A stretch of DNA of 64,000 nucleotides from a virus. Below are positions 20,173 through 58,600 of the stretch, piece after piece. Under the pieces are notes generated by a model. It did no database searches. It had not been told where the DNA came from and saw only the letters and a program-made list of their open reading frames with translations. Every line of letters begins with the position of its first letter. Position 1 is the stretch's first letter. Position numbers and translations under genes: made by a program. The DNA lies in IMG/VR virus record IMGVR_UViG_3300017977_000066, positions 32,001 to 96,000 of that record; one strand, written 5' to 3'.

Positions 20173-21132
20173 ATGAATATTAATAAGAATAATGTGGAGT
20201 TAATATACATAACACCATTATGGGTAGCTGATATGGCTATAGGTGTTTGTTGGGATAAACAAAAGCCAGTATGTGATATTAAGAGGATGGATAGAATAGC
20301 TAATAAATTTAAACATAGAAGTACTATAGAACACATACACATTATATTTACTACGCACGACTACGCGATAGCTTCAGTATTTAGGGATAATAATTTCTCT
20401 ATAGCAACACCTACCAATGGCACATGGGTTATAACTACTAACATGAGAGCTTTGGGAGATATGAGATTTACGGATATAGATTATGAGGCATTACTACCAG
20501 AAGAGTATCTTTTTCTAGTAACTAACAAGCCATATGAAGTTATGGGACTTAACACCCCATCCCCTAGTATACATATCAAAGATAATTATGGTACTACTAT
20601 AAATTTACTTTCTGATAGTCACCATACCTATACAACAGCTTCTAAAGAAAATGCTTCTTTTAACTTCCATATAAAAGGATGTAGTAGGGCTGTTCTTCAA
20701 GAACTAGCTAGACATAGATCAGCTAACCTTAGTGTTAAGAGTAGTAGATACACACTTAATGAACTTAAGCACGAGAAGCAGTTTAAATTTCTATTCTTAA
20801 TAACTAAAGAACAGAAAGCTAGGGCTAACGAGTATTTAGTCTTTACTGGTCATGATGATGTTGATAGAGCAGCTATATTAGCATTAGAGAACCTAAGGCG
20901 ACTTGTTAATTCTGGTAAGAGCATAGATAAGATTAAGACAGCCATGCCTGAGGCTTATAGGACAGAATTAGTACTCTCTTTTACATACAGTGGGTTAGCT
21001 AACTTTTTACAGCTTAGATTAAACGATTCGGCTTGGTATCAGATACGATCATTAGCTAGACATATTACTACTATACTACCATTGCCTATATTAGAAGATA
21101 TGGGTAGAGATATAAAAATACCATTAGTATAA
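20173..21132 (+). CDS. thyX: FAD-dependent thymidylate synthase
   Basis: HRSTIEH, SRAVLQELARHR..LSVKSSRY, NFLQLR; start moved to 20173 because of AAGGA RBS. Confidence 0.9.
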   Translation: MNINKNNVELIYITPLWVADMAIGVCWDKQKPVCDIKRMDRIANKFKHRSTIEHIHIIFTTHDYAIASVFRDNNFSIATPTNGTWVITTNMRALGDMRFTDIDYEALLPEEYLFLVTNKPYEVMGLNTPSPSIHIKDNYGTTINLLSDSHHTYTTASKENASFNFHIKGCSRAVLQELARHRSANLSVKSSRYTLNELKHEKQFKFLFLITKEQKARANEYLVFTGHDDVDRAAILALENLRRLVNSGKSIDKIKTAMPEAYRTELVLSFTYSGLANFLQLRLNDSAWYQIRSLARHITTILPLPILEDMGRDIKIPLV

Positions 21133-21153
21133 TAGTAGATAAAAAACAGTGTA

Positions 21154-21290
21154 GTTAATTTTTATATAAAAGGGCGTAGCAGAGTAATACTACAAGAGTT
21201 GGCTAGACACATGTCTGGTAATTTTAGTGTTAAGAGTAGCAGGTATACATTAAAAAGAGCTTAAAGGAGAGTGGTCATTTAACATTAGAT
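21154..21290 (+). pseudogene. Degenerate second thyX fragment
   Basis: Translates NFYIKGRSRVILQELARHMSGNFSVKSSRYTLK, then a frameshift; no start codon. Confidence 0.8.
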
Positions 21291-21513
21291 TCAGTAGAGT
21301 CTAAGGGACTTTCTGATGTCCAGTTAGATAACATATCGCTAGTTATAAAAGCATGGTCTGAAAAAGCCATTAGATCTATATTTGTAGATGAAGTACTTAT
21401 AGGTAAGACTAGTTATGGTATTACTAAGGAATTAAGAAAACGTTTGCAGCTAGATAAGGTCGATCACACATATAGTCCTATCGACTATATAGGCTACATG
21501 GATGGTCATAGTC

Positions 21514-21551
21514 AGAGAAAGGATAGCTTAATACTATCCTTTCTCTTTTTT
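21514..21551. terminator. Terminator hairpin
   Basis: AGAGAAAGGATAG/CTATCCTTTCTCT plus T-tract. Confidence 0.7.
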
Positions 21552-22201: not shown

Positions 22202-22211
22202 ATCATAATCC

Positions 22212-23015
22212 TTATTCGTTAGCTAATTGCCGAGCCTCGGCATCAGTTAAAGCTCTGTTAAATATATGTAGTACATCTATAGAACCAAACTTCCTATAAC
22301 CACTATCGGCACCCCACCCAAATATATTAAGGTCAGTATTTTTTATTATAGCATTACCAGGAGTCTGACTAGAATCTCTCTGGCTAAGAGTTTGTGGTTG
22401 ACCATCTACCCATATCTTATTGTTAGTATAATCTCCCTCATGCATCTCCATAACTAAGTGTATGAAATTATTTTGTGTTATGGGGTTATCTATACCATAA
22501 AGATCGCCATTAGCAGTATTAAAACCTAACTTACCACCAGTTAAGTATATGTCATATAGATCGAACCCAAGAGGCATAACCGATGATGTACCTGACCATT
22601 TAGCAAAAAAAGAGAATGTTATAACATCTTTATCGTAGTTAAGAGGTATAGATATATGTGAACTATTATTCCTAGACTTAACAGCTTGACCATGCACCCC
22701 ATTAACCCATCTTACTGCATCTGTTATAGTACCATCATAAATACCACCAACATCATTAGCATCTCCATCAAATAGGAATGTGGCTACACCACTACCATCC
22801 CCAAATGGATCTAGTGAGTCTGGTACTGGCATAATTCTGGTACCCAATTGACCTTGCCAAACATTCTTATCAGTAGTACCATCTATAGATAGAAATAACT
22901 CACCTGTAGTTATATTCTCCCATATAGTGCCTTCTGATAGGTTAGTTGTGGTAGTGGGATTATCGTCACTCTTAATAACACCTTTTATGTTTCTTAAGCT
23001 AAACTTATCCATCAC
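22212..23015 (-). CDS. LamG/concanavalin-like domain protein (fibre or adhesin)
   Basis: FDGDAND..G, KIWVDG, FGSIDVLHIFNRALTDAE. Confidence 0.8.
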   Translation of the reverse strand: MMDKFSLRNIKGVIKSDDNPTTTTNLSEGTIWENITTGELFLSIDGTTDKNVWQGQLGTRIMPVPDSLDPFGDGSGVATFLFDGDANDVGGIYDGTITDAVRWVNGVHGQAVKSRNNSSHISIPLNYDKDVITFSFFAKWSGTSSVMPLGFDLYDIYLTGGKLGFNTANGDLYGIDNPITQNNFIHLVMEMHEGDYTNNKIWVDGQPQTLSQRDSSQTPGNAIIKNTDLNIFGWGADSGYRKFGSIDVLHIFNRALTDAEARQLANE

Positions 23016-24223: not shown

Positions 24224-24277
24224 GCTATTTCCTTATGTATCTTTATTCAATTTAGTTATTCATTTGTTTTATGACTT

Positions 24278-24318: not shown

Positions 24319-24341
24319 AAATAATAATATAGGAGACAGGT

Positions 24342-24693: not shown

Positions 24694-26529
24694 ATGATAG
24701 AAACTAAAAATGGGAGTAGACTGACTTTTGATGACATAAAAAAAGATCTTTTAAAAGATAACATACGTATCATGGAGCCTAGTAAAGAGTTGTTAGGCAT
24801 GGCTAAAACTACCTATAAGTCCAGGATGCAACAAAGTATCCTAGCTAACAGATATAAAGATACTGAAGAGTTAGATAAGAACTTAAAATATACACTAGAT
24901 GATATACTAAGTAAAGAGTTTATAGAGCAACATCTTCCTATCATCAAGACCAGTACTGAGTTATTGGTAAATGCTATAAATGCTAATGAGCATATAGTAG
25001 TAGTAAGTGATTATGATGTAGATGGTGTCACAAGTGGTGCTATATTGTACTATTTATTCCATGATCTTTTCAAGTATGAGAATGTAGAATATATTATCAA
25101 CAAGAGAGATTTTGGTAACGGTATCAATAAGACCATCACTAAGAGACTTATCGAGTACAATAAAGTTAAGAAGATAGGGTTGTTCATAACTAGTGATGCT
25201 GGTAGTCATGATGAAGAGTCTTATAAGGTACTTAAAGAAGAGACAGACATGAAGATCATCGTTACAGATCACCACCTCTTCTCTGAAGATGAGTTCCCTA
25301 ATAGTGCAGATGCATTAGTTAACCCACAAAGATATGATAATGATTTTAAATATCTAACTGGTACACATATAGCATACTACACACTACTACATGCATACTT
25401 GACTATGCATGATGTTATAACAGAGGAAGCTAAAAAAGTTATCTACTATAAACTCTTATATGTAGGTATGACAGTCATATCTGATTGTATGGATCTTAAA
25501 CACTATATAAACAGAAAAGTTGTTAAATATATGCTAGTAGAACTTAATCGTAAAGATATAGAACATGATCCTTTCTGGGCTTATATTATTAAAGAGATAA
25601 GTAATGGATATCTTATAACAGAAACCACATTAAGCTATAATGTTATCTCTATGCTTAACTCTCCAGGTAGGATATCTAATCCTAGGATATCATTCGAGTT
25701 ATTAACATCTGGTAATGCTGATGTAGCTGAACAGTACCATAAAGATATCTCTGTTATCAATAATACTAGAAAAGATAAACAGAAGAAAGCTTTTAAATCT
25801 ACTAAGAAAGAAGAGTTCTCTGATGGTGCTATAAAGGTAATGGTTATTGATGACATAAATGGCATACAAGGCATCGTTGCTAATAATGTTATGTATGAAG
25901 ATAACTTTAAAGCTGTTATAGTTTTCAGTAAAGTAAGTTTACCTACTGGGGAAGTATATATAGGTTCTGGTAGATCTCAGGATGAAAACATTAATCTAAA
26001 AGAAATACTAGATGGTGTTAATGATGCTACTGATATCATGATCTCTTATGGTGGGCATGAGAAAGCAGTAGGAGTGAAGATACTTCCTGATCTTAAGAAG
26101 TTTTATACTACCTTTAAAGCAGAGGTAGATAAGCATGAGGTTAAGAAAATAGAATACACTGATGTAGAAGATTATATATTCAGTGTTAAGAAGATCATAA
26201 CTAATATGGCTGATATTGATAGCATGTCACCTTACGGCATAGGCTTCCCTTTACCAACGTTCGCAGGAGACTTCAGTATCGTATCGTATAGGATATACCA
26301 AAACAATGGTTATTACCTTAGCCTTAAAGTTAATGTTGGTACTAACGATACTGCTATCATGTCAGCATTCTACCATGTGAAGTCTAGTGAGATAGAAGAG
26401 TTCTCTGATGACTTAAAGTACCAAAAGAATATTAGGATGGTATTTACATTAGATGTAAATACTTTTAGAATGTATAATCGTATACAAATAAATGTTAAAG
26501 AGTTAATATTTAAAAAGGACAATAAATGA
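24694..26529 (+). CDS. recJ: RecJ-like DHH ssDNA exonuclease
   Basis: DYDVDG, TDHH, VNP, GSGRS, GGHEKAVG. Confidence 0.9.
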   Translation: MIETKNGSRLTFDDIKKDLLKDNIRIMEPSKELLGMAKTTYKSRMQQSILANRYKDTEELDKNLKYTLDDILSKEFIEQHLPIIKTSTELLVNAINANEHIVVVSDYDVDGVTSGAILYYLFHDLFKYENVEYIINKRDFGNGINKTITKRLIEYNKVKKIGLFITSDAGSHDEESYKVLKEETDMKIIVTDHHLFSEDEFPNSADALVNPQRYDNDFKYLTGTHIAYYTLLHAYLTMHDVITEEAKKVIYYKLLYVGMTVISDCMDLKHYINRKVVKYMLVELNRKDIEHDPFWAYIIKEISNGYLITETTLSYNVISMLNSPGRISNPRISFELLTSGNADVAEQYHKDISVINNTRKDKQKKAFKSTKKEEFSDGAIKVMVIDDINGIQGIVANNVMYEDNFKAVIVFSKVSLPTGEVYIGSGRSQDENINLKEILDGVNDATDIMISYGGHEKAVGVKILPDLKKFYTTFKAEVDKHEVKKIEYTDVEDYIFSVKKIITNMADIDSMSPYGIGFPLPTFAGDFSIVSYRIYQNNGYYLSLKVNVGTNDTAIMSAFYHVKSSEIEEFSDDLKYQKNIRMVFTLDVNTFRMYNRIQINVKELIFKKDNK

Positions 26530-27488: not shown

Positions 27489-29513
27489 ATGATAAAAGCA
27501 GGTATAGAAACATTAATAAGGCCACAACTTAATGATGAGGTCATAACTCATATAGAAACTTTCTTCGGTAAGCTACATAAACTCTGTACGCAATTCTATA
27601 TTAAAGACATTATAACACCTAGTGAGTTCAATACTTCTTTTACTAAACTACAAGAGGAGTTCGATACTATCATCTATAATAGATTTAATTTCCATATCAC
27701 TATGAAACCATACTCTACATTTGCTATATTACCTATCTTTAATCAAGACCTAAAAGTAACTAAACCTTTGTCAATTACTAAAGATATTAAGAAAGCTTTA
27801 AAACAGATAAAAGAGTTTTCCTACTATATAGAAGATAATGAAGTTCTTATAGATACTAAGAATGCTAAGTTCCATAACTTCAAAGATACGTGGGTCATGA
27901 CATATCTCATAGACCCTGAGATGATACCATTGCTAACGGCTAGAGACTTCACCGTTATAACACTACATGAGATAGGGCATGTATTCACTCTTATAGAGAT
28001 GTATAGTAATACTACTAGACAAACAGCTAGTTTATCAAAAGCTTTATTATCCATAGATCCATATGGCGAACTATGTAAGTACATAGGCATCAGTAAGAAA
28101 GATAAAGATAATACTAAAGATGTTAGCCTATTGTTATATGATAAAGTAGATGATGATATGGAAAAAGTATTCTTAGCCTATGGTAGAGATGATGTAGATA
28201 CTGATTCTGAATATGAAGCAGATGATTTCGTTTCTAAGTTCGGGTTAAGTGGTGACCTTACTACTACACTTGTTAAGCTAACAGATGCTGAAAAGTTAGG
28301 TCTATCTAGAGCCCCAATATTATTTTTAACCATGACTACATTAGACAACTTAGCCTTCTTAATCTTGGCTGTACTTTTAGTGGATCTGCCTTTAGCCATC
28401 TCTTTAGTGGTAATAAGTATGTTAGTAAAGATAACTGTTTTCATATTTGATATAACTAATGTAACTAAAAATAGGAATCCATCTGGTGATGAACATGGTG
28501 ATTTTGGTACTAGAGTAGAACATCTTAGAGCTGGTATCATATCTGTTATAAGAACTACATCTTTAGATACTAAAGAGAAGAAACGGCTATTAAAACAACT
28601 AGATGCTATAGATAATAAGATAGATATCATCAATAAGAGTATATACAACTCCATACTAGGCTCTCTAGTTAACGATCTACTTAAACCTAACCTTAATATA
28701 CGGGATGAGCTTTCAAGTCTCTTATCGTCTCTTATAGACAATGAGCTTTATGTAAGTCAGGCAAGATTCGGAGTTGGAGTTGAAAATAGATTAGCAGCTA
28801 TAAAACCAAATGTCTTCATAACTAAAGATTCTTTATTCTCTAACTGGTTAGTTAATATCTTTAATAACACTGAAGATAAAATATTCTCTACACTAAATGA
28901 GCTATTGGATAAGTATGGGTTATACGTGGAATATAAAGATGGTTCATTAACAGTAAGATCTTTCAATGACTTAACAATATCTACTGGTATATCTACTATA
29001 GCCTTTATCCCTGTAGAGACAAGTGAAACTATCATAACACTAACACTAGATGCCGTTAAGCTAAATTATCTTCTAGCTAATGATAAAATAACAGTATACG
29101 ATATACAGAAGATACAACTTACAGATACTAAGTTCCTATATCTGGTAGAAGTAGAGAGATGCAAACATATAAGCTATAAGAGTGAGCTTGGTGAACAACT
29201 AAATAAACTTGTAGATGATATGGATGCTGCTGTTACTAGACATAGAGAAGAGTATGGTAGTTCTACAGCTGCTGTGCAGTTAGACATCATGTTAGCATCA
29301 GATGTCCCTAACCTAGACTTATTAAAAACAGACCTTATGTTAGCTAGATCTACTATAGATGGGTTACCTAATACAGCAGCTATAAATCTAGATCTACATA
29401 TGGGTAACATCATGCTTAATAAAACAGGTAGAATTGTTATAACAGATCCTATATACTATAGTGCTGGTTTAGCTAGTAAAGTTTCTAATGATATAGATAT
29501 AGATAACTTATAA
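27489..29513 (+). CDS. Probable head protein: HExxH domain, TM segment, kinase-like C-terminal domain
   Basis: N-terminal AGIE, LHEIGH, hydrophobic stretch, internal GVE, DLHMGNIM...ITDP. Confidence 0.65.
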   Translation: MIKAGIETLIRPQLNDEVITHIETFFGKLHKLCTQFYIKDIITPSEFNTSFTKLQEEFDTIIYNRFNFHITMKPYSTFAILPIFNQDLKVTKPLSITKDIKKALKQIKEFSYYIEDNEVLIDTKNAKFHNFKDTWVMTYLIDPEMIPLLTARDFTVITLHEIGHVFTLIEMYSNTTRQTASLSKALLSIDPYGELCKYIGISKKDKDNTKDVSLLLYDKVDDDMEKVFLAYGRDDVDTDSEYEADDFVSKFGLSGDLTTTLVKLTDAEKLGLSRAPILFLTMTTLDNLAFLILAVLLVDLPLAISLVVISMLVKITVFIFDITNVTKNRNPSGDEHGDFGTRVEHLRAGIISVIRTTSLDTKEKKRLLKQLDAIDNKIDIINKSIYNSILGSLVNDLLKPNLNIRDELSSLLSSLIDNELYVSQARFGVGVENRLAAIKPNVFITKDSLFSNWLVNIFNNTEDKIFSTLNELLDKYGLYVEYKDGSLTVRSFNDLTISTGISTIAFIPVETSETIITLTLDAVKLNYLLANDKITVYDIQKIQLTDTKFLYLVEVERCKHISYKSELGEQLNKLVDDMDAAVTRHREEYGSSTAAVQLDIMLASDVPNLDLLKTDLMLARSTIDGLPNTAAINLDLHMGNIMLNKTGRIVITDPIYYSAGLASKVSNDIDIDNL

Positions 29514-30154: not shown

Positions 30155-31198
30155 ATGACAGGTGTACTACATTTAATAGCTACTGGAGGTTGCGGTATCA
30201 ATCTCTTAGCCGATATAAAACCAGAGCTAGAGAAATTAGGAGGATCTTTCGCTAAGATCAAATATAGTTACATAGATACTACAGATAAGACCATACAAGC
30301 TCACGCTGATCTAGCTGAAGATTTTACTCTTATCAAAAGCAAAAGAGCTAGTGTTGACTCTATAGATGGTATGGGCGGAGAGAGAGCTTCCAAAGAAGCT
30401 ACTATGGATATTAATGCCAACATCAAAGAGTATGTAGATAAACTAACTAATGATGCTCATGTATACTATGTAGTCATATCTTCTGGTTCAGGTGCAAGTG
30501 GTAGTCTTATATCACCACTGCTAACTAAAGAGCTTTTAGCTAAAGGTTGTAATACAGTAGTAACACTTGTTGGTGATAGTAGTAACCTATTAGGTTTACA
30601 TAATACTATTAACACTATCTCTACATTCCAATCTATAGTTAGTGTAAAGAAAGGTAGAAAGAATCCAAGTGCTGCTTCTTTACCTATGATATATTATAGC
30701 AATACTGTAGATGGTAATACAACCCCATCTACTGAAAAAGCTGTTAACGATAGAGTATTTAAGATGTTATCTATCTTAGCTATGTATACTTCTGGTTCTA
30801 TACAAAATATAGATAATACAGATATGGGATTGTTCTTTAGAGCATCTAACTATAAATCTGTGGATGTTGATCCAGGTTTATATACACTAGGTGTGGCTAT
30901 AGGTAGTCTTGATGATAAATTAACAGTTATGGCCAGAACAGTTATAAGTGAAGATGAGTCTGTAGATGTTAAGATACCATTAGTACATAACAAGATAGGT
31001 ATAGCTGCTGATGACTTTAAAGAGTATTTTAAAGAGCTTCCTCTATACCTACTTTTAAGAACTGGTATCATGAATGTTGAAGTTAGAAAGCTTAAAGAGA
31101 CATTAGATAGTATGGAAGAGAAGCGCCATACTAACTATGAAGACATCGAGTCTTTAGATAGATCTGAACTAGATGATGATCTAGGAGTAGTAGTTTAA
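30155..31198 (+). CDS. phuZ: Phage tubulin PhuZ
   Basis: GGCGINL, YIDT, GMGG, SGSGASGS loop, acidic DDDLGVVV tail; early promoter. Confidence 0.92.
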   Translation: MTGVLHLIATGGCGINLLADIKPELEKLGGSFAKIKYSYIDTTDKTIQAHADLAEDFTLIKSKRASVDSIDGMGGERASKEATMDINANIKEYVDKLTNDAHVYYVVISSGSGASGSLISPLLTKELLAKGCNTVVTLVGDSSNLLGLHNTINTISTFQSIVSVKKGRKNPSAASLPMIYYSNTVDGNTTPSTEKAVNDRVFKMLSILAMYTSGSIQNIDNTDMGLFFRASNYKSVDVDPGLYTLGVAIGSLDDKLTVMARTVISEDESVDVKIPLVHNKIGIAADDFKEYFKELPLYLLLRTGIMNVEVRKLKETLDSMEEKRHTNYEDIESLDRSELDDDLGVVV

Positions 31199-33917: not shown

Positions 33918-34319
33918 ATGTTATTTGAATTAAAGAAGACGTATAACTTTAATACAGTTAGTATGTCAGTATTAGATTTTAGTTATAAGAATTTAACAGT
34001 TTTAAGTTATTTAGGTTTTGACCAAGCTATAAAGTATTCAGGTGTCTACAATGATGTTGTTACTATAAGAGAACAATTAATAGTAGAGACATCTAAGTCC
34101 TTCATAGAGTCTAAGGATGCTATATATGTACTCTTCAAAAGCAGTGATGGTACTGAAGTACTTCTAGCAGAAGATTGGGTAGATGCTGACTCTATAGAAC
34201 TTGTACAGGACATAAGTCTTGCTCTAACTATAAAAGACATTACAACTAGCGATACAGCTATCATAATGGATACCTTAAGAGCTTTAGGATATAACGATAT
34301 AGATTCGCACATAATATAG
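33918..34319 (+). CDS. Conserved phiKZ-like hypothetical protein
   Basis: AAGGAG RBS; W..DSIE and I...L..LGY pattern. Confidence 0.6.
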   Translation: MLFELKKTYNFNTVSMSVLDFSYKNLTVLSYLGFDQAIKYSGVYNDVVTIREQLIVETSKSFIESKDAIYVLFKSSDGTEVLLAEDWVDADSIELVQDISLALTIKDITTSDTAIIMDTLRALGYNDIDSHII

Positions 34320-43125: not shown

Positions 43126-43224
43126 AGCTAATCCTTATAAACTAATTTTTTCAAAAGATACTCATGACCACACATATCCTTTATGGTTACTACTTCTTAT
43201 AATGAAAATATAAAAGGAGAAAAT

Positions 43225-46472: not shown

Positions 46473-48866
46473 TTATTTTGTTGTCGCTATTATCTCTATT
46501 ATACCACTAACATCTTCAGAGTTATCTCCTACTGTAGCGGTGTTGCTAGTTTGTCTTATATCCAAGCTTACTTGGTCTTCAGTACTACTAACAGTAGATT
46601 CATTTATACCAGCACTTGTAAGTTGGGCACTATATTTTCTCTGTATGATATCTGTCCTACCTGTAACATCATAGCCATTATTGATACCATCATTATTACC
46701 TACTGTATATATAAGACCCTCATTCTTAACATCAGTATGTAATGGATTAGTCATAGTCTTAAGTTCTAAGTCAGTAAAGTTACTATGCTCTAGACCAGGA
46801 CTATATAAAGGATAGTTCCTAGATAATGAGCCGAATACATCATAGCTAGTATTAATGGTCTCCTCTCTAGCAAATAAAGGCATGGGACCAAAAGGTTTAG
46901 TAGTGAGTATATTAAGACTAGTGTTTATGCTAAGTCTATCATCTATAGTATAAGTCTTGTTTAGGACATCGTAGTCGGCTTCTTCGTATATTTTATACTC
47001 TGCATCCTTTATTTCTAGATAAGCCTTATAACCTAGGTTAATGTTATTCTTACAGGCATTTATAACTTTTGTATCTGAGAAATCAATATCCATAAGTAAT
47101 TGTACAGTATAAGAAGTATCTTTATTAAATATGTTTATGATTTTATTATATCTTTCTAATAATTCTTTTAAGCTATCTGTCTCTATATCTACTATGCTAT
47201 TAAGTAAAGGTTCTAATATTACACTATATGTAAATTTATTTAAGAACGAAGTGAGACCATAATCATCTAAGGCCTGCTCTATCTCTGTTATGTTATACTC
47301 CTCTATGTTACTAGAGAATAGATAGTTAGTCATGAGTATAGTATCTTTCTTAGCAGTGTTATCCACTAGGTTACTTATAAGGTACCATACTTTCTTCTCT
47401 ATATATATACACCCATCTATATATTTAGTTAAAGCTTCTTTACTATTTATACCATCGCGGCTACCTACATCAGCTACTAAATAATCAAATATATCACCAT
47501 TATCTAGTTTATACCAAGTAGACAATAGAGTTTCATTCCTATCTATGTTATTGTTAAATACAGCACCATACTTAATAGAGAAGTCATCTCCAGTTAGCTT
47601 GTTTATCTTATATAGTAAATATACTAATAACAATTTAACCTGCTGACCAGATAGATTATATAACATACTATCTACAGGGTTATAGAAATCTATACCATAT
47701 GATATCTTACCATCCGATATAAGACTTATGACATTAGAGATCAAGATGTTAAATAAAGACTCATCTGTTAGCTTTATCTTATTAGGTTTATCTATAATAA
47801 ACATCTTAGTCAGAGTGTTACTTAAGTAGTTATCATTAAGCAAACTCTTATAATATTCATAACTTATAGTCTTATACTCTGGTACGAGACTGTTTAGTTT
47901 AAACAAACTATTAATATCAGCTAGATCATAGTTACTACCTAAGATGTTATAAGCAGATGGGTTAGCTGACTCTATAGTAAGATCTGTAGCCTGGCTAACA
48001 TAAGGTAGGTCTATCTTATCATAGTTCCTGTCTATAGGCTCTAAAGCATTCCTCTTAAACACACCTTTACCTATCCCTATATACTCTTTATTAAATACAT
48101 CAAAAAGTACATTATGAAGGATATGGTTACCACCTACATTATGTTTCATCCTGTTTATATTACCATATAACCAGATATTAGTGCTTAGCTTAAGTATATC
48201 GGTATCATTAGCTAGATACTTATAAGATACCAGATGTAGATCTCTCTGGAATGAATCAGCTTTATTAGTTAGAACATTCTTTAATTTTAAAGATAATACA
48301 TAGTTAAATAAGCTAGTATATAGGATACCTAATAACCCTGGTAAATAAAGCTCATCACTCATATAACCTCTATTACTATAGTTAACCATAACCTTACTTA
48401 TATAAGCTTCTAGCTCTGGTATAAGATATGTTTCATTACTCTCTAATAGTGACATATCATAAGCTAGTATGGTATAGTTCTTACTAACAACAGCTCTATC
48501 TAGTTTTATGTTATAAAGTAAACCTTTTATATAATCAGACATACCAGGATTAAGTCTGATAGTATCCGTATAGTACTTATCGAACTTAAGTAGCTCATCT
48601 CTGATATTACTATTATTATTAAGTAGCTCATCAGTCAGCTCTATTAGATCAGAACCTTGTAACTGGTTTATATAAACTTTAGGATCTAAAATATTTTTCA
48701 TACCAGCGATGTTTTGATAATATTTACTATGTGGCTGTGTTGGCGGTGTTTTATCATACTTAACATAAAATTGATAATCCTGTTGTACTGATATTTCATT
48801 TATCTTAATTACTAAACTATTTATAAATCTTTTTACTGAATTATAATAAACTTGTAATGTTACCAT
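46473..48866 (-). CDS. Virion structural protein (phiKZ gp128-like position)
   Basis: KYYQNIAG and WLYGNI motifs; divergent from portal. Confidence 0.55.
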   Translation of the reverse strand: MVTLQVYYNSVKRFINSLVIKINEISVQQDYQFYVKYDKTPPTQPHSKYYQNIAGMKNILDPKVYINQLQGSDLIELTDELLNNNSNIRDELLKFDKYYTDTIRLNPGMSDYIKGLLYNIKLDRAVVSKNYTILAYDMSLLESNETYLIPELEAYISKVMVNYSNRGYMSDELYLPGLLGILYTSLFNYVLSLKLKNVLTNKADSFQRDLHLVSYKYLANDTDILKLSTNIWLYGNINRMKHNVGGNHILHNVLFDVFNKEYIGIGKGVFKRNALEPIDRNYDKIDLPYVSQATDLTIESANPSAYNILGSNYDLADINSLFKLNSLVPEYKTISYEYYKSLLNDNYLSNTLTKMFIIDKPNKIKLTDESLFNILISNVISLISDGKISYGIDFYNPVDSMLYNLSGQQVKLLLVYLLYKINKLTGDDFSIKYGAVFNNNIDRNETLLSTWYKLDNGDIFDYLVADVGSRDGINSKEALTKYIDGCIYIEKKVWYLISNLVDNTAKKDTILMTNYLFSSNIEEYNITEIEQALDDYGLTSFLNKFTYSVILEPLLNSIVDIETDSLKELLERYNKIINIFNKDTSYTVQLLMDIDFSDTKVINACKNNINLGYKAYLEIKDAEYKIYEEADYDVLNKTYTIDDRLSINTSLNILTTKPFGPMPLFAREETINTSYDVFGSLSRNYPLYSPGLEHSNFTDLELKTMTNPLHTDVKNEGLIYTVGNNDGINNGYDVTGRTDIIQRKYSAQLTSAGINESTVSSTEDQVSLDIRQTSNTATVGDNSEDVSGIIEIIATTK

Positions 48867-48910: not shown

Positions 48911-51292
48911 ATGCAAAAATCAATAAGTGAACCTAATATGTTCAAGTCTGTTAAGAGAGATCTAGTTACTAAAGCTATAAAATCTGCTAAGAGTAGAGAT
49001 AATAATTTAGACAATAATGTAATAAATAAATATACTGGTTATGCTAATGGTATGGATGAACTCATAGAGAATGTATTAGAGCTATTCCCAGATATAAGTT
49101 TAGCTATAGAGACTATGACTTCATTAGTAGCATCTCCTAATGATATGGATGACCCTAGCTTAACATATAGGCTAGACAACTCTTATCTACCTAGCGATGT
49201 TAAGAATGTTATACTTAACACTATAAGCAAGTATGTAGAGACTGAATATGATATCGTTAGCAAACTAGATGACATCATAACTGAAACAATGTATACTAAA
49301 GGCTCGTATATAGAACTCAACATCCCTCCTAAAAATATAGTAGATATACTAAGCATGATCGACAAGAACCCTAAAGCCGGTGTTGAATCGGCATTTAAGT
49401 CAAGTGCATTCTTAGACTTAGGTATATCTAAAGATGTTGTGGATACAAGATTTAACTTAGAAGTAACTGATAACCATAGCTGCTTATTTACTAGCATGAT
49501 GAATGAGACTAAAGTAAGCTCCATGGTATCATCTGGCCTATATAAAAAAGATGCCAATTTATCAGCTGGTATAGAGAGTTTAAAACTAACTGGACTTAAT
49601 ACAGCAGTTATGGATGCTGGTAACATAGACGGAGATAAGCCTATAGTTAAGAAGATACCTTCTAGTTCTGTTATCCCTATCTCTAGTAAAGATGATAACA
49701 CTAGACACTATGGTTATTTCATAGCTCTAGATGGCGATGGTAAAAGTATCAGTAACTCTAATACTAAATACAGTTTTGATGGTGCTAATGCCTTATTAGA
49801 AGACATCAAGAAGAATGTTAAAGGTGCTAAAGAGAAAGTTCCTGAGCTTAAGAATATGGAAGACATAAAAGAACTTATGTTAGTTCAGAATCTTAAAAAA
49901 TATCTTAATGATTCTATCTATAAAGACTTAGTTTCACTAGACATAGACATAGATGATGATGTTATGTATAACATAGCTACATATGCTCTTAATAAAACAC
50001 CTATTAAGATTATATTTGTACCTAGGGAACTAGTTAGCTACTATGCCATCAACTTCAGAAGTAATGGTACTGGAGAAGCTCTTCTAGAGCGTATCACCAA
50101 CCTAGCTTCTATAAGAGGGATCATACTCTACACTAACTTACTATCTTATATAAAAAGTTCTGTTACTAATACAGAAGTAAAAGTAGATCTAGATCCAGAA
50201 GATCCTAACTTCATCAAAACCTCAGAACAGATCATGGGACAGGTTATGAAAAACCGACAAGTAGAACTTCCTATAGGTATGATGAGAGCAGAAGACTTCG
50301 TAGACTGGACTAGAAAACTTGGTATCTCTTTTAATTTCAAACATCCAGGCTTACCAGATGTTAATATAGATATAAATGAAACTAATACTGAGATAACTCC
50401 TATAGAATCTGATCTTAAAGATACTATAGATAAACAGATAGTTACAGCACTCATGTTACCTCCTGAGATACTAGATGATAACTTCTCTCCTGAGTTCGCA
50501 ACTACCATCATAGCTAATAATAAGCTACTAGCTAAGAGGGTTAAGAAGACACAACGGAAGTTAAATGTTCTTATAACAGAAGATATCAAGAAGAAGCTAT
50601 TGTTAGATGGTAGGCTTAAGAGTGTTATAAGCGATATAATAGTATCTAATAAAGTTAAGATAAAACATAACCTTAAGAAGCTAGATCCTAACATAAATAA
50701 AAATATAGTATCTAAAGTAACTGATGATGTATTAGTAGAGTATGTTTTCACTAACCTATTCAAGAACTTTAGGGTATCATTACCTAAGCCAGAAGTAACT
50801 GATGATTCTAATGTTAATGATATGTTCTCTAATTATACCGATACACTAGATGATGTTATAGATAAGATATTTAGTTCAGACCTATTGAGTAGTGACCTTA
50901 TAGGTGACTTAAGTGATAACCTAGATGTAGCTAAAGATGCTATAAAAGTTACACTCATGAAACGATTCATAGATGAGAACAACATCTTACCAGACCTTAC
51001 TAAGATGCTTAGCCTTAATGAGGATAACGTACCTAACGAGGATCTCTTAACAGAATTCAATACTTATGTAGAAACCGTTAGTAAAACATTATTACCTTTC
51101 ATTAAGGAAAATAATAAGATACGAGATAAGACTGATGATAAGTTAGAGAAAATAGATGAAGAAGATAATAATGATGATAATGATGATAGTGACACAGGCG
51201 ATACTACTGATGACACTAATGACGATGGTACTACCGAGCCTAATGAGGATGAGGGTGAAGAAGAGCCAGATGAAAAAGAACCGACTGAATAG
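48911..51292 (+). CDS. Portal protein (phiKZ gp129-like)
   Basis: LFPDI.LA, H.GYFI.LD.DG, Y.A..F..NGTG..LL, PEFATT, acidic tail. Confidence 0.8.
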   Translation: MQKSISEPNMFKSVKRDLVTKAIKSAKSRDNNLDNNVINKYTGYANGMDELIENVLELFPDISLAIETMTSLVASPNDMDDPSLTYRLDNSYLPSDVKNVILNTISKYVETEYDIVSKLDDIITETMYTKGSYIELNIPPKNIVDILSMIDKNPKAGVESAFKSSAFLDLGISKDVVDTRFNLEVTDNHSCLFTSMMNETKVSSMVSSGLYKKDANLSAGIESLKLTGLNTAVMDAGNIDGDKPIVKKIPSSSVIPISSKDDNTRHYGYFIALDGDGKSISNSNTKYSFDGANALLEDIKKNVKGAKEKVPELKNMEDIKELMLVQNLKKYLNDSIYKDLVSLDIDIDDDVMYNIATYALNKTPIKIIFVPRELVSYYAINFRSNGTGEALLERITNLASIRGIILYTNLLSYIKSSVTNTEVKVDLDPEDPNFIKTSEQIMGQVMKNRQVELPIGMMRAEDFVDWTRKLGISFNFKHPGLPDVNIDINETNTEITPIESDLKDTIDKQIVTALMLPPEILDDNFSPEFATTIIANNKLLAKRVKKTQRKLNVLITEDIKKKLLLDGRLKSVISDIIVSNKVKIKHNLKKLDPNINKNIVSKVTDDVLVEYVFTNLFKNFRVSLPKPEVTDDSNVNDMFSNYTDTLDDVIDKIFSSDLLSSDLIGDLSDNLDVAKDAIKVTLMKRFIDENNILPDLTKMLSLNEDNVPNEDLLTEFNTYVETVSKTLLPFIKENNKIRDKTDDKLEKIDEEDNNDDNDDSDTGDTTDDTNDDGTTEPNEDEGEEEPDEKEPTE

Positions 51293-52761: not shown

Positions 52762-52763
52762 CA

Positions 52764-55241: not shown

Positions 55242-55250
55242 ATCGTATCC

Positions 55251-55493: not shown

Positions 55494-56533
55494 ATATCAT
55501 CCTTTAACTTTTTGGTTTTTTCATTAAGTATATATCTAACATTAAGATTAGGTACATCAAAATATCGTTTTCTTTTAGCTAACCCTAACCATATCTTAAG
55601 TTCGTTAATGAGATCATGGTTCATCCTAGCATCTCCTATCCCTAATAGAAAGCTAAAATAACTAACTCTAGATAATAGTAATAACCATGAGCCTTTAACA
55701 CCTGTATAAACATTAGGTATCTTATAAGTATCTAACATGTTACCATTAAGTAGATCTGGTAATATACTTAGTAGTTCTTGATAGTCTATCTTCTTATTCT
55801 TGTTGATTTCATCTATGTACCAAGATTGTATACTAGTCACTAACTTACTTATATCCTTAACAAAGAAAGGATTAAAGTTAACGAAGCTAGATAACTCCTT
55901 ACCCTCATAGATAGCATTATACCTATTAAACATACTATGCCTAAATATGTCTGGTATAAGGTTAGTGATAACCTCTTCATATATAAACTTAGCTGGATCT
56001 ATACTAAAGGTATCTGGATGCTCTTTCATATTCCTATTAGCCCATCTATGATAATCTCTTACTAGGTTAACTATATTTATAGCATAGGTATTAAAATCAT
56101 CAGCATCAAATTCTACATTGTATCTCTTAGGATGTGTTAAGAATAGCATGTCCATAGTACTATATATGCAAGTACAAGTAGTGTCTTTATCTTCTGTTAT
56201 AATAAAGAACTCATCCATATTATCAAATACTGTATCTCTAAAAGGCTTACTATTAAAATCTATACCAGTATTGAAGCCTAATGTATTAGCTAGCCTCATG
56301 TACTTCTCTTGTGCAGAGAACATGGCTGAGCTTTCAGTATCATGTATATTTATCTCTAACGACTCTAGTAATGTAACTAGTATATTAGGTCTTCTAACAT
56401 AGAAGCCACTCTGCTTATAATAGTTATCTAGAACACTGATAAGATTCTCTATGAGACTTGTAGCATAGTTTAACTTATAATGTTTTATCTTACCTACCCT
56501 AACTTCATAATCTTGTGTTAACATTCCTATCAT
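55490..56533 (-). CDS. Conserved phiKZ-like protein, probably virion
   Basis: 347 aa; late motif upstream. Confidence 0.55.
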   Translation of the reverse strand: MIGMLTQDYEVRVGKIKHYKLNYATSLIENLISVLDNYYKQSGFYVRRPNILVTLLESLEINIHDTESSAMFSAQEKYMRLANTLGFNTGIDFNSKPFRDTVFDNMDEFFIITEDKDTTCTCIYSTMDMLFLTHPKRYNVEFDADDFNTYAINIVNLVRDYHRWANRNMKEHPDTFSIDPAKFIYEEVITNLIPDIFRHSMFNRYNAIYEGKELSSFVNFNPFFVKDISKLVTSIQSWYIDEINKNKKIDYQELLSILPDLLNGNMLDTYKIPNVYTGVKGSWLLLLSRVSYFSFLLGIGDARMNHDLINELKIWLGLAKRKRYFDVPNLNVRYILNEKTKKLKDDI

Positions 56534-56733
56534 AGTTACTTCCTTATGTTATTTTTCAAAGAAATATTGGTATGTCTAAAAGATAGATAAAAATAAATAT
56601 TTTTATTTGTACATTATATATACTGAATAAAAACAAAAAAGAAGTTTTGCTTAGGCGAAGCTTTTAGTAATGTAGGGAAAACCTTATTTTACTAGATGGT
56701 GGTAATTTGTGTGTTTCATATATTTTTTACACC

Positions 56734-56760
56734 TATATTACTTACATGAGCCTAGAGCTT
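56734..56760 (+). promoter_or_regulatory. Early promoter of chmA
   Basis: TATATTACTTACATGAGCCTAGAGCTT. Confidence 0.8.
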
Positions 56761-56791
56761 AAATTAATTTAAACCCTATAAGGAGTCTGGA

Positions 56792-58600
56792 ATGAGACGA
56801 GGAATAACAATAGACGACAATGTTAATAACACGGGTCTTGATGACCTGCTAAACAATGAAGAAGTAGGTAACACAAGTACCGGTACTGCTGATGATGGCC
56901 AACTGCAAGTAGTAGGTCTATCTGGTATGGATTCGTTAATGCTTGAAGATAGTGACCAAGAGTCACTTGGTAAATATGCAGTAAAATCTGCAGAGATACT
57001 AAAAGAGGGATACTTAGATATCCGTGTTATGAAGATGGATAAAGAGAAGTTCGGTCTTGGATTTAGCTTCGTACTTTATAGTACTAAAGACAATGCTGGT
57101 AAAGTATACTACTTCTTAGCTCTTTTAGAGAAAACAGGTAGACAACCATTAGAAGTAAAACAAATCGTAAATGAGTTAAATGTTAAGAACAACACATCTA
57201 TCTTAGTTACAAGTGATGCTTTTGATGATACTGTTTATGCTATTGCTGAGACTATGCTTAAGAAAGCATATAAAGATATTACATCTCTTAGAAACCTAGA
57301 GGGTGTTGTTATCCCTAGTAGTTCAGATGTAGAAGCTACTGCTGAAGTTATGAGTAGATATGTTCATAACCGTATGGTAGTTGAAAGTGAGATCACTTCT
57401 GGTAAATCAGCAGACCTTAACTTTAAAGCATTGAGGGCTATTGGTAGAAATAGCAATACTAACTTAGACATTGCTTTCAATACTGGTTTAACTATTAATA
57501 CTGCAGGTAGATCTATTAGATCGGATTTCAATATCGAATCTAATATCGCATCTAATAGTTATGTTAGAAGTATGCATGATATCTCTGGTAAGAAGCGTAT
57601 CGCTACCGTATCTGGATACCTAGAGTATTTAGTATCTGATAAAGTTAATGAGTATACGATGCAGTCCACTAAAGTTGCAACACCTATCCTTATCTTAAAC
57701 GAGTTCATGGGTAAAGCTAGTTCACTTAATTATGTATTAACTTCTATTGTTAACTCTACTATCTTTAGTAGCAGACCTATCCTTAGAAACTTAATCGTAG
57801 AGAAAGATGCTGGCCCATTAAATGTACTATTTAACTATGGTGGTGATGCTTCTAAGCCTGGTGACAAACTAAGCTTCAAAGATGAAAAAGCTAAGCCTGA
57901 GATAGTTAATGATATCATCAGACAACATGTTACATCTACACCTATCGTTGCTATCGAGGTAGAGTTATTCGGTTCTGACTATTCACACATGGCTCCATTC
58001 GTAGCATTAGCAAGTGATGAAACTCGTATGGCTGCTACTGAAGACATCTTAAAAGGTGCTAGTGAGTTGGTTGGTTCTAAAATGGAAACATCAAGTGTTC
58101 TGGGTGATGAGTCTTCACTAGTTCCTATCGGAGAGTATCTAGATGCTGATGGTAATGTTAGAGATCTTCGTGAAATCGACTTAGCGTTCATCTGTACTTA
58201 TAGTAACGATCAAGCACTTATCTTTGATTGGATCTACTCTACTTTAACTCCTGCTATGTGTAGAAGTATAACTAGTAAAGATCCGTATCTACTTAAACTA
58301 GAAGTGATTAACAAACTTGCAAGTATGTTAAACTTCAAACCTGTTATCACTGGTAAAGCTGTTCGTATCCCGCTAAGTGGGATGTTCGTAGAAGAGTTAA
58401 CTCGTAAAGCTATGCAAGCAGGATATAACCCAGCTCCAACGAATGATGCTATCGGTTACAATGATTTCAATAATCTACAAATCGTAAGCCAAGCATACAA
58501 TGGTTCTACATTAGCTAATACTGGATTTGGTATGGGTAACTCATATTCAAATGGTAGAAGCCAAATGCCTGGTGTATATACTGGTTATCAACGCCGCTAA
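56792..58600 (+). CDS. chmA: Chimallin, phage nuclear shell protein
   Basis: 602 aa with motifs I recognise from ChmA in order: GRSIRSDF, TVSGYLE, VAIEVE..G, VPIGEY.D.DG..RDLREID, ITGKAVR, A.QAG; early promoter; PhuZ in same window. Confidence 0.88.
   Translation: MRRGITIDDNVNNTGLDDLLNNEEVGNTSTGTADDGQLQVVGLSGMDSLMLEDSDQESLGKYAVKSAEILKEGYLDIRVMKMDKEKFGLGFSFVLYSTKDNAGKVYYFLALLEKTGRQPLEVKQIVNELNVKNNTSILVTSDAFDDTVYAIAETMLKKAYKDITSLRNLEGVVIPSSSDVEATAEVMSRYVHNRMVVESEITSGKSADLNFKALRAIGRNSNTNLDIAFNTGLTINTAGRSIRSDFNIESNIASNSYVRSMHDISGKKRIATVSGYLEYLVSDKVNEYTMQSTKVATPILILNEFMGKASSLNYVLTSIVNSTIFSSRPILRNLIVEKDAGPLNVLFNYGGDASKPGDKLSFKDEKAKPEIVNDIIRQHVTSTPIVAIEVELFGSDYSHMAPFVALASDETRMAATEDILKGASELVGSKMETSSVLGDESSLVPIGEYLDADGNVRDLREIDLAFICTYSNDQALIFDWIYSTLTPAMCRSITSKDPYLLKLEVINKLASMLNFKPVITGKAVRIPLSGMFVEELTRKAMQAGYNPAPTNDAIGYNDFNNLQIVSQAYNGSTLANTGFGMGNSYSNGRSQMPGVYTGYQRR

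What the first reader, a model, noticed from the sequence alone, without database searches (positions are those of the whole stretch)
20173..58600. Nucleus-forming jumbo phage with signs of a Campylobacterota host
Seen: chimallin, PhuZ and split virion RNAP genes in an AT-rich genome. Known: the characterised nucleus-forming phages I know of infect Gamma- and Betaproteobacteria. Seen plus recall: ThyX reads TPL...CW...DRIANKFKHRSTIEH...SRAVLQELARHR..LSVKSSRYTL.EL, matching the Campylobacter-type ThyX pattern as I remember it. Inference: a divergent chimallivirus infecting Campylobacterota (Sulfurimonas, Sulfurovum or Arcobacter-like), which would extend the phage-nucleus strategy to another phylum.
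Basis: partly seen in the sequence, partly recalled or inferred. Interest (0 to 1): 0.8.

Follow-up and report, generated by a model that had tools for sequence, protein, structure and literature searches.

The report
Vent jumbo phage with nucleus-shell gene
This is part of an uncultured giant phage from hydrothermal-vent biofilms that carries the genes for a protein "nucleus"; two of its nucleotide-metabolism genes resemble those of Campylobacterota, so that phylum is its likely but unproven host.

Summary
The window lies in a 154,896-bp IMG/VR phage contig (33% GC, about 58% complete). It encodes a true chimallin at 56792-58600: a 16-sequence profile matches solved chimallins at 1.9e-30, and the nine best Foldseek hits are all chimallins (E 2e-25, TM 0.65-0.77). 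It also encodes PhuZ, phiKZ-type RNA polymerase beta pieces, capsid, sheath, terminase and a divergent PolB.

In a PolB tree the phage, four IMG/VR relatives and a 222-kb relative form a clade with 100/100 support. That clade is sister to seven cultured phiKZ-like isolate phages of Gamma- and Betaproteobacteria.

The host reading is supported only indirectly.
- ThyX: its 80 best cellular relatives are all Campylobacterota. Its only close relatives in isolate phages are in Campylobacter phages.
- Dimeric dUTPase: it matches C. jejuni dUTPase best among solved structures. Every organism-named top hit among 1.84 billion proteins is Campylobacterota.
- The 222-kb relative carries a separately derived ThyX of the same type.
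- Sequences 90-95% identical occur in vent and biofilm metagenomes.

RecJ, NrdA, dCMP deaminase and SLT give no host signal. No CRISPR spacer match and no tRNA were found.

Other first readers of this scan noted similar phages on other DNA; those notes are unchecked.

Verdict: a new, deep-branching member of a known kind. Odds of a Campylobacterota host are about 0.6.

The parts
56792..58600 (+). chmA, chimallin (phage-nucleus shell protein), 602 aa
   Evidence: phrog_4795 8.4e-24. Profile A1 against PDB: 8fne PhuN 1.9e-30, 7sqq and 8igg chimallin about 1e-21. AF2 model has pLDDT 73 and pTM 0.74, with low-confidence tails at 1-52 and 551-602. The nine best Foldseek hits are all chimallins, E 2e-25, TM 0.65-0.77.
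30155..31198 (+). PhuZ, phage tubulin
   Evidence: phrog_4733 'tubulin PhuZ' 4.7e-38. PDB hits: 9pm9 tubulin/FtsZ domain 2.2e-9, phiKZ039 5.5e-6, PhuZ201 5e-4.
20101..21132 (+). ThyX, flavin-dependent thymidylate synthase of the Campylobacterota type, with a roughly 105-aa insertion after the STIEH motif
   Evidence: PF02511 1.2e-27. PDB 3ah5 1.1e-32 against 2e-4 for the next organism. All named homologues are Helicobacter or Helicobacteraceae. The 80 best genome hits are all Campylobacterota. Campylobacter phages are the only close phage hits. The insertion is seen in alignment A2.
21148..21345 (+). Decayed fragment of a second ThyX motif region just after the thyX stop
   Evidence: PF02511 match 5.4e-8 with 6 stop codons. 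A roughly 40-aa readable stretch is 70% identical to the phage's own ThyX and up to 76% to cellular ThyX. It is 72-76% identical at the DNA level to Campylobacterota genomes over about 110 nt.
24694..26529 (+). RecJ-like DHH exonuclease of a viral lineage
   Evidence: DHH 8.2e-16 and RecJ_OB 1.2e-10. The nearest Atlas clusters are viral. Identity to Campylobacterota RecJ is only 27-30%.
3301..4911 (+). phiKZ-type multisubunit RNA polymerase, beta-like piece
   Evidence: phrog_2986 3.2e-157.
5506..9651 (+). phiKZ-type multisubunit RNA polymerase, beta-like piece, 1381 aa
   Evidence: phrog_3148 1.9e-264. tblastn finds 24-28% identity to annotated RNAP beta subunits in 306 jumbo-phage records.
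17918..20056 (-). Large terminase
   Evidence: phrog_2 1.1e-38 and phrog_32359 1.1e-34.
15213..15767 (+). dCMP deaminase
   Evidence: HAE...PCxxC motif and PF00383 1.1e-22 in the contig scan. It matches 2641 phage records, best the Lak megaphages at 40%. No host signal.
15784..16356 (+). Small SLT-domain lytic transglycosylase, probably the endolysin
   Evidence: PF01464 1.1e-7. It is 24-33% identical to proteins of phages whose listed hosts are all Gram-negative bacteria.
39096..41222 (-). Tail sheath, phiKZ gp29 type
   Evidence: PF20961 phiKZ_gp29PR 5.9e-16.
43183..44634 (+). UvsX-like recombinase
   Evidence: phrog_97 2.5e-37.
58527..59651 (+). Capsid vertex protein, phiKZ gp28 type. The true start is probably later than the TTG that overlaps chmA.
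   Evidence: PF25614 PhiKZ_VTX 8e-16, with the match beginning at residue 63.
60185..62365 (+). Divergent family B DNA polymerase
   Evidence: PF20286 divDNApol 3.1e-161. It is 28-31% identical to all isolate jumbo phages. Tree.
33918..34319 (+). SH3-fold protein associated with phage DNA polymerases
   Evidence: PF20287 8.6e-13.
46473..48866 (-). phiKZ-type virion structural protein (PhiPA3 gp147-like), not an RNAP subunit
   Evidence: phrog_3222 6.3e-47 and tblastn annotations.
48911..51292 (+). phiKZ-type virion structural protein
   Evidence: phrog_3004 1.1e-104.
27489..29513 (+). Large protein with a C-terminal stretch resembling T7 gp0.7-type kinases
   Evidence: phrog_2767 4.5e-19, phrog_15752 2.1e-6 and phrog_2828 3.2e-5.

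Best explanation
The window is about 40% of a fragment of an uncultured lytic jumbo phage. The phage belongs to a deep, AT-rich, vent-associated lineage of chimallin-encoding (phiKZ-like, nucleus-forming) phages. By analogy with phiKZ, 201phi2-1 and Goslar (inferred, not shown here), a packaged virion RNA polymerase transcribes early genes. ChmA then self-assembles through its flexible N- and C-terminal tails into a closed protein shell around the replicating phage DNA. PhuZ filaments position that shell. Replication, recombination and transcription proteins work inside it, and capsids dock on it for packaging. The phage also brings its own dNTP supply: ThyX, dimeric dUTPase, dCMP deaminase and class I ribonucleotide reductase. 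The host is most likely a member of Campylobacterota living in vent biofilms. ThyX and dUTPase are of the type found in that phylum and its phages. I infer they were picked up from such hosts or from phages sharing them.
For: Chimallin: profile hits to solved chimallins and an exclusive chimallin fold match.
Other hallmarks: PhuZ, RNAP beta pieces, TerL, sheath, vertex protein and PolB; MCP gp120 type, protease S80 and DnaB-like helicase elsewhere on the contig.
Lineage: PolB clade 100/100 with IMG/VR relatives, sister to seven Gamma/Beta isolate phages.
Host, ThyX: PDB ranking; named homologues are all Helicobacter or Helicobacteraceae; 80 of the 80 best genome loci are Campylobacterota at 42-55% identity; among 50,697 phage records only Campylobacter phages reach 39-44%, and the rest are 31% or lower except one 68-residue Streptomyces-phage fragment at 39.7% (E 9e-4).
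Host, dUTPase: best PDB match is C. jejuni 1w2y at 9.7e-42 (identity of 1W2Y from PMC10014863). It is present in 270 of 401 sampled Campylobacterota genomes at 36-49%. In a HMMER search of 1.84 billion proteins, the only organism names among 20 looked-up proteins from the top 28 are Hydrogenimonas, Thiovulaceae/Sulfurimonadaceae and Campylobacter.
Host, sister phage: G412 has ChmA (2.8e-121) and a ThyX that is 57-61% identical to Campylobacterales MAG genes but only 46% identical to this phage's.
Habitat: contigs mostly 90-95% identical cover the laid 10 kb in hydrothermal-vent and biofilm metagenomes of two studies.
Translation signals: AAGGA precedes 58% of starts, which argues against hosts that lack Shine-Dalgarno use.
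Against: No CRISPR spacer-like match was found for window 1-60000 against about 380-400 Campylobacterota genomes. That search scores only two candidates per genome. The contig has no tRNA. RecJ, NrdA, dCMP deaminase and SLT show no Campylobacterota affinity. ThyX and dUTPase identities of 40-55% indicate old transfers. The closest ThyX relatives are on other phage contigs. The AU test does not reject a phage ThyX clade outside the cellular Campylobacterota genes (p 0.65). The ThyX genome scan used patterns drawn from this ThyX type, so its candidate set is biased. Four closer IMG/VR relatives and one more distant chimallin contig, all fragments but one, show neither gene. All cultured chimalliviruses infect Pseudomonadota. 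Nucleus formation itself is inferred from homology.
Confidence: 0.6

Rival explanations
1. The phage is the same nucleus-forming phage, but its host is another low-GC Gram-negative of vent biofilms, for example sulfur-oxidising Gammaproteobacteria. On this reading ThyX and dUTPase arrived by phage-to-phage exchange or are relics of an older host association.
For: All cultured relatives infect Gamma- or Betaproteobacteria. The nearest ThyX relatives are on phage contigs of unknown host. No spacer was found in Campylobacterota. The SLT's weak best hits are in phages of marine Gammaproteobacteria. Four of six tested accessory genes carry no Campylobacterota signal.
Against: Two unrelated genes point to the same phylum. 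A sister phage acquired the same ThyX type separately, and at higher identity to cellular genes. No gene tested points specifically to Gammaproteobacteria. The lineage is sister to the Gamma/Beta-infecting isolates, not inside them.
Confidence: 0.3
2. The chimallin homologue no longer builds a closed nucleus in this lineage. It would have another structural or scaffold role, so the phage replicates without a compartment.
For: ChmA shares only 14-15% identity with solved chimallins in the structural alignment and 22% with the best isolate hit. Nothing here observes an infection.
Against: The fold matches over the full length, with flexible N and C tails as in chimallin. The gene is conserved at 41-75% across 12 relatives. 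PhuZ and the multisubunit RNAP set are also present.
Confidence: 0.05
3. The Campylobacterota-type genes are assembly artefacts: a chimeric contig joining a chimallivirus to DNA from a Campylobacterota phage or cell.
For: The contig is a linear metagenome assembly. Only 10 kb of it was checked against other runs.
Against: thyX lies between the terminase and phiKZ-type genes. Composition is uniform at 31-35% GC. The same phage-specific inserted ThyX form occurs on other contigs. G412 independently carries ChmA, ThyX and dUTPase on one 222-kb contig.
Confidence: 0.03

Closest known systems
Chimalliviridae (phiKZ, 201phi2-1, PhiPA3, Goslar, RAY; Prichard et al. 2023, PMC10299810)
   Same: It has a chimallin with the same fold, PhuZ, phiKZ-type multisubunit RNAP pieces, gp120-type capsid, gp29-type sheath, gp28-type vertex protein, S80 protease, divergent PolB, DnaB-like helicase and UvsX-like recombinase.
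   Different: Identities are very low: ChmA 14-22%, PolB 28-31%, RNAP beta 24-28%. In the PolB tree the lineage is sister to the sampled isolates, not among them. GC is 33%. It comes from vent and biofilm habitats. Its ThyX and dimeric dUTPase are of the Campylobacterota type. It is uncultured and only about 58% complete.
Metagenomic chimallin/PhuZ phage set of PMC12625630 (BMC Genomics 2025; 2,001 genomes from IMG/VR and other sources)
   Same: These are uncultured chimallin-encoding contigs from the same public collection, and this contig may already be counted there. Predicted hosts already go beyond Gamma- and Betaproteobacteria.
   Different: That paper names Enterobacterales, Alteromonadales, Pseudomonadales, Vibrionales, Bacillales, Corynebacteriales and Neisseria. 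Its text mentions neither Campylobacter nor hydrothermal samples. Its supplementary tables could not be read here.
Campylobacter phages of Eucampyvirinae (Fletchervirus, e.g. NCTC12673 and PC14; Firehammervirus, e.g. CP220 and CPt10)
   Same: They are the only isolate phages with a ThyX of this type, at 39-44% identity.
   Different: Their records are 124-183 kb and classed in Eucampyvirinae, outside the phiKZ-like phages; none of them appears among the 294 PolB or 306 RNAP-beta matches. Their ThyX lacks the 105-aa insertion.
AR9/PBS1-like Bacillus jumbo phages (here vB_BspM_AgentSmith)
   Same: They are AT-rich jumbo phages with phiKZ-type multisubunit RNAPs, and their PolB is about as similar (29.8%).
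   Different: They lack chimallin (PMC10299810, PMC13282480), whereas this phage has it. AgentSmith served as the outgroup in the PolB tree.

Membership tests
Chimalliviridae | Encodes a chimallin (ChmA) homologue | tested here: met
   Profile hits to PDB chimallins at 1.9e-30 to 1.6e-17. The nine best Foldseek hits are all chimallins, E 2e-25 and TM up to 0.77. phrog_4795.
Chimalliviridae | phiKZ-type multisubunit RNA polymerases (virion and non-virion sets) | tested here: met
   Two beta-like pieces at 3301-4911 and 5506-9651. An Rpb1 domain-2 hit lies elsewhere on the contig. I did not assign pieces to the virion or non-virion set.
Chimalliviridae | Shared structural and replication core (gp120-type capsid, TerL, sheath, protease, PolB, helicase) | tested here: met
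   PhiKZ_MCP 4.3e-98, divDNAB 6.5e-88 and Peptidase_S80 9e-46. gp29PR, PhiKZ_VTX and divDNApol. TerL.
Chimalliviridae | The published 72-gene core in seven blocks, including 21 genes unique to the family | tested here: inconclusive
   Many phiKZ-specific PHROGs of unknown function are present, but they were not mapped one by one to the published list. The contig is about 58% complete.
Chimalliviridae | Groups with family members in marker-gene trees | tested here: inconclusive
   In the PolB tree the lineage is sister (98/97) to a 100/100 clade of seven isolates, rooted on a phage taken, from published accounts of the AR9/PBS1 group, to lack chimallin. Whether that counts as inside the family depends on where the boundary is drawn. 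phiKZ itself and Vibrio phages were not sampled.
Chimalliviridae | Forms a proteinaceous nucleus during infection | not testable with these tools
   Needs microscopy of infected cells. No host culture is known.
Phages of Campylobacterota (host assignment) | CRISPR spacer match in a host genome | tested here: inconclusive
   No match of spacer length and at least 95% identity lay outside conserved or low-complexity stretches, for window 1-60000 against 381-401 sampled genomes. Only two candidates per genome were scored, and the rest of the contig was not searched.
Phages of Campylobacterota (host assignment) | Accessory genes whose closest cellular relatives are in the host phylum | tested here: met
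   ThyX and dimeric dUTPase meet it. RecJ, NrdA, dCMP deaminase and SLT do not.
Phages of Campylobacterota (host assignment) | Habitat shared with the proposed host | tested here: met
   Close relatives occur in hydrothermal-vent and biofilm metagenomes. Campylobacterota are described as dominating deep-sea vents (abstract of PMC12936845). Co-occurrence is not specific.
Phages of Campylobacterota (host assignment) | Infection of a cultured member | not testable with these tools
   No isolate exists.

The most novel reading that the evidence does not exclude
A whole deep-branching, AT-rich lineage of chimallin-encoding jumbo phages infects Campylobacterota of sulfidic and vent habitats. The lineage comprises this contig, at least four IMG/VR relatives and the 222-kb G412. 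It would be sister to all cultured nucleus-forming phages, so the phage nucleus would predate the split between phages of Pseudomonadota and phages of Campylobacterota.
Probability: 0.5. Interest if true: 0.7.

Novelty: new member of a known kind. Interest (0 to 1): 0.55.

Why it matters
Nucleus-forming phages resist DNA-targeting CRISPR and restriction systems. They have been studied only in hosts from Pseudomonadota.

A sister lineage in another phylum would show how old and how portable the compartment is. Its shell protein shares only about 15-20% identity with the solved ones, so it would show which residues really matter for lattice assembly. It would also identify a class of predators of the main primary producers at hydrothermal vents.

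The contig also gives a practical handle. ThyX and the dimeric dUTPase can serve as host-lineage markers for these phages, where spacer-based prediction usually fails.

Tried and rejected
- tRNA scan of the window and the contig: none found.
- Megablast of 22 kb against isolate phages: no match.
- Spacer search of window 1-60000 against about 400 Campylobacterota genomes: only thyX and recJ coding similarity plus short hits in AT-rich, terminator-like intergenic stretches.
- RecJ: viral lineage, 27-30% identity to Campylobacterota.
- NrdA (contig 2304-4460): nearest relatives sit on jumbo-phage contigs of about 240 kb.
- dCMP deaminase: ubiquitous in phages, best match the Lak megaphages.
- SLT: weak hits only.
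- ThyX and dUTPase in five IMG/VR chimallin relatives (four closer, one more distant): not found, but four of the five are fragments.
- AU test for ThyX nesting inside the cellular Campylobacterota genes: monophyly of the cellular genes is not rejected (p 0.65). The test on the full 111-row set did not finish.
- Name look-ups of unnamed ThyX hits: no names.
- Literature: no paper holds chimallin together with hydrothermal. In a two-of-six-term search none of the 15 listed papers held chimallin. The single jumbo-phage paper mentioning Campylobacterota does so only in a reference title. The IMG sample numbers occur in no held paper.
- Supplements of PMC12625630 are not held.
- One Pfam call went on the wrong ORFs while I was looking for the reductase.
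- Genome rows reached through loci carry no taxon names, so the best-matching genus could not be read.

Full report
WHAT THE WINDOW IS. The window is bases 32001-96000 of a single linear IMG/VR virus record of 154,896 bp, which CheckV rates about 58% complete. GC is 31-35% along the window and 33.0% over the contig. Genes are densely packed on both strands. ARAGORN finds no tRNA in the window or the contig. No isolate phage shares DNA-level similarity with it.

OBSERVATION.
- The 602-aa ORF at 56792-58600 matches PHROG 4795, 'nuclear shell protein', at 8.4e-24. Alone it matches the PhiPA3 shell protein only weakly (0.063).
- A profile of it and 15 metagenomic homologues hits every solved chimallin over nearly the full length: 8fne 1.9e-30, 7sqq 8.2e-22, 8igg 9.5e-22 and 7sqt 1.6e-17.
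- An AlphaFold2 model from that alignment has mean pLDDT 73 and pTM 0.74. Only residues 1-52, 257-264 and 551-602 are of low confidence.
- In a Foldseek search of the PDB, its nine significant hits are all chimallins (E 2e-25 to 1.6e-20, TM 0.65-0.77). The next hit is at E 0.016.
- PhuZ at 30155-31198 matches PHROG 4733 (4.7e-38) and the solved phiKZ and 201phi2-1 tubulins.
- The quoted ThyX motifs are in the gene at 20101-21132.
- One correction on coordinates. The RNA polymerase genes lie at 3301-4911 and 5506-9651. The dCMP deaminase is at 15213-15767 and SLT at 15784-16356. All are in the window but outside the stated span. The large ORF at 46473-48866 is a virion protein, not a polymerase piece.

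WHAT KIND OF PHAGE. Besides ChmA and PhuZ, the contig carries the phiKZ-type set.
- In the window: gp29-type sheath, gp28-type vertex protein, divergent PolB with its SH3 partner, TerL, UvsX-like recombinase and many phiKZ-specific PHROGs of unknown function.
- Elsewhere on the contig: gp120-type major capsid protein, S80 prohead protease and divergent DnaB-like helicase.
- Similarity to cultured phages is very low. ChmA is 22% identical to its single tblastn hit (Burkholderia phage FLC9). PolB is 28-31% identical to 294 records, and about as similar to a Bacillus AR9-like phage (29.8%) as to chimalliviruses. RNAP beta is 24-28% identical.
- A PolB maximum-likelihood tree puts this phage with four IMG/VR contigs (PolB 45-64%) and a 222-kb IMG/VR contig, G412 (38%), in a clade with 100/100 support. 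That clade is sister (98/97) to a 100/100 clade holding phiKZ-like isolate phages of Ralstonia, Erwinia, Xanthomonas, Klebsiella, Serratia, Salmonella and Cronobacter. The root is on Bacillus phage AgentSmith.
- G412 encodes a ChmA of the same profile (2.8e-121). It shares 66 of this contig's 151 ORFs at a median 32% identity and has 31% GC.
- So this is a deep, AT-rich, uncultured lineage of chimallin-encoding phages. Only seven isolates were sampled in the tree.

HOST: WHAT POINTS TO CAMPYLOBACTEROTA.
1. ThyX.
 - phmmer against all PDB chains ranks two 216-aa ThyX entries (3ah5, 3n3y) at about 1e-32. From memory these are Helicobacter pylori. ThyX of other organisms scores 2e-4 or worse.
 - In the 5.8-billion-protein search, three phage-type relatives come first. 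The next hits are 200-240-aa proteins at 45-54% identity, and every one that carries an organism name is Helicobacter or Helicobacteraceae.
 - A scan of one genome from each of 185,579 species found 508 confirmed relatives. The best 80 are all Campylobacterota: Campylobacterales MAGs, Sulfurospirillum, Sulfuricurvum, Sulfurimonas, Nitratifractor, Arcobacter, Wolinella, Helicobacter and Campylobacter. Identities are 42-55% on a flat plateau of E 2e-38 to 2e-34. The scan's patterns came from this ThyX type, so this result is not unbiased.
 - An unbiased tblastn of 50,697 phage records finds this type only in 54 Campylobacter phage records (39-44%). All other full-domain matches are at 31% or lower, with E about 1e-6; one 68-residue Streptomyces-phage fragment reaches 39.7% (E 9e-4).
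 - In a tree rooted on Firmicute-phage ThyX, the phage gene and its three inserted-type relatives sit in an 18-row clade of unnamed metagenomic proteins (SH-aLRT 98). Several of those lie on contigs of 43-45 kb. IMG/VR holds 169 viral contigs with this ThyX type, many from the same samples as the ChmA relatives.
 - That clade falls among the Campylobacterota genes in the free tree. The AU test does not reject placing it outside them (p 0.65). The safe statement is 'Campylobacterota-type ThyX, nearest cellular relatives only in that phylum'.
2. Dimeric dUTPase (contig 7527-8198, minus strand; PF08761 6.3e-26).
 - Its best solved relative is 1w2y, over the full length at 9.7e-42. The others are trypanosomatid enzymes. 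1W2Y is the C. jejuni enzyme (PMC10014863).
 - The nearest isolate-phage protein is only 34% identical.
 - 270 of 401 sampled Campylobacterota genomes have it, at 36-49% identity in the listed matches.
 - In a HMMER search of 1.84 billion representatives I looked up 20 proteins from the top 28 hits. The only organism names returned were Hydrogenimonas sp. (rank 6), a Thiovulaceae/Sulfurimonadaceae MAG (rank 18) and Campylobacter spp. (rank 28). Most top hits are unnamed.
3. Sister phage. G412 has its own ThyX without the insertion. It is 57-61% identical to Campylobacterales MAG genes and only 46% identical to this phage's ThyX. This indicates a separate acquisition of the same host-type gene within the lineage.
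4. Habitat. Contigs from four runs labelled hydrothermal-vent or biofilm metagenome, in two studies, cover nearly all of the laid 10 kb, mostly at 90-95% identity. Campylobacterota are described as dominating such systems (abstract of PMC12936845).
5. Translation signals. AAGGA lies upstream of 58% of starts and AGGA upstream of 78%, against 1-5% background. This fits a host that uses Shine-Dalgarno sequences. From general knowledge, it argues against Bacteroidota.

HOST: WHAT DOES NOT HELP OR ARGUES AGAINST.
- RecJ and NrdA belong to viral lineages, and RecJ is only 27-30% identical to Campylobacterota RecJ.
- dCMP deaminase is a common phage gene, with its best hit in the Lak megaphages.
- SLT has only weak hits, and the listed ones are to phages of Gram-negative bacteria.
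- No spacer-like match appeared for 60 kb of the contig against about 400 sampled genomes of the phylum. The tool scores only two candidates per genome. Spacers against chimalliviruses are rare in any case: 9% of phages in PMC12625630.
- Five other IMG/VR chimallin contigs (four closer relatives and one more distant) lack both genes in the parts held.
- Identities of 40-55% mean the transfers are old and could predate a host switch.

MECHANISM. Shown here: the genes, the fold, and the flexible-looking ChmA tails. Inferred by homology with phiKZ, 201phi2-1 and Goslar (PMC10299810, PMC13282480):
- early transcription by a packaged polymerase;
- assembly of ChmA into a shell that encloses phage DNA and excludes host nucleases;
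- positioning of the shell by PhuZ;
- replication and recombination inside the shell by PolB, the helicase, UvsX and RecJ;
- capsid docking for packaging.
ThyX, dUTPase, dCMP deaminase and class I reductase would supply dTTP-rich precursors for a 33% GC genome.

COMPARISON WITH WHAT IS KNOWN.
- Prichard et al. define Chimalliviridae by chimallin plus a 72-gene core, and they already report many metagenomic members (PMC10299810).
- A 2025 survey screened IMG/VR and found 2,001 chimallin genomes. [quoted passage not shown]
- A 2026 review lists the host groups of jumbo phages without Campylobacterota (PMC13282480).
- No held paper combines chimallin with hydrothermal, and none listed combines it with a Campylobacterota name.
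- The phage is therefore a new, deep-branching member of a known kind. The host phylum would be new for this kind if confirmed.
- Several other first-reader notes in this scan describe similar AT-rich chimallin phages with Campylobacter-like accessory genes on other DNA. They are unchecked and are not independent evidence.

VERDICT.
- Chimallin-encoding phiKZ-like phage: about 0.95.
- Campylobacterota host: about 0.6.
- Another Gram-negative vent host: about 0.3.
- Interest 0.55. A specialist would find a sister lineage in another phylum notable. Against that, the contig is public, the kind is known, wider host ranges have already been predicted, and the host evidence is indirect.

Noticed in passing
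window 20101-21132 (ThyX residues about 79-186): The ThyX carries an insertion of roughly 105 aa between the STIEH motif and the catalytic RHR/SxKSSRY region. Three 318-320-aa metagenomic relatives and one 285-aa protein share it. All cellular and Campylobacter-phage ThyX lack it, and it has no Pfam match.
   Followed up: partly
window 21148-21345: Directly after the thyX stop lies a decayed copy of the ThyX core motif region, about 40 readable residues followed by stops. It may be a scar of gene replacement or recombination.
   Followed up: partly
window 27489-29513: A 674-aa protein whose C-terminal 40 residues match PHROGs annotated as T7 gp0.7-like and Ser/Thr kinases (2e-6, 3e-5). Its N-terminal 430 aa match a phiKZ-type PHROG of unknown function, and a paralogue-like match lies at contig 96197-97663.
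   Followed up: no
window 22212-23015: A 267-aa protein with a concanavalin-A-like lectin/glucanase domain (Laminin_G_3, 5.6e-7). It may be a receptor-binding or glycan-binding virion protein.
   Followed up: no
contig 1179-4460 (outside the window; L094): A class I ribonucleotide reductase large subunit (718 aa), with the 371-aa ORF next to it probably the small subunit (a Ribonuc_red_sm hit on the contig was not mapped to an ORF). The large subunit's nearest relatives (43-51%) sit on contigs of about 240 kb, and some relatives carry intein or homing-endonuclease domains.
   Followed up: partly
contig, outside the window (ORFs not mapped): The contig-wide Pfam scan also found an nSTAND3 NTPase (3.3e-10), an AP2 domain (1.6e-13), an RNase H, a phosphomevalonate-kinase-like protein (9.9e-9) and a second DHH/DHHA1 protein.
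   Followed up: no
G412 (IMGVR_UViG_3300028549_000365) 133622-134656: The 222-kb sister phage has three clustered tRNA-like genes just downstream of its chmA: one tRNA-Met and two with odd anticodon loops.
   Followed up: no
window 58527-59651: The longest ORF for the gp28-type vertex protein starts at a TTG 74 nt inside chmA, while the family match begins at residue 63. The real start is probably downstream of chmA.
   Followed up: no
G005:C20:18160-26143 (Campylobacterales MAG): In one Campylobacterales MAG, the recJ, dimeric dUTPase and SLT-like matches to this phage's proteins all lie within 8 kb on one contig. In the phage the three genes are far apart.
   Followed up: no
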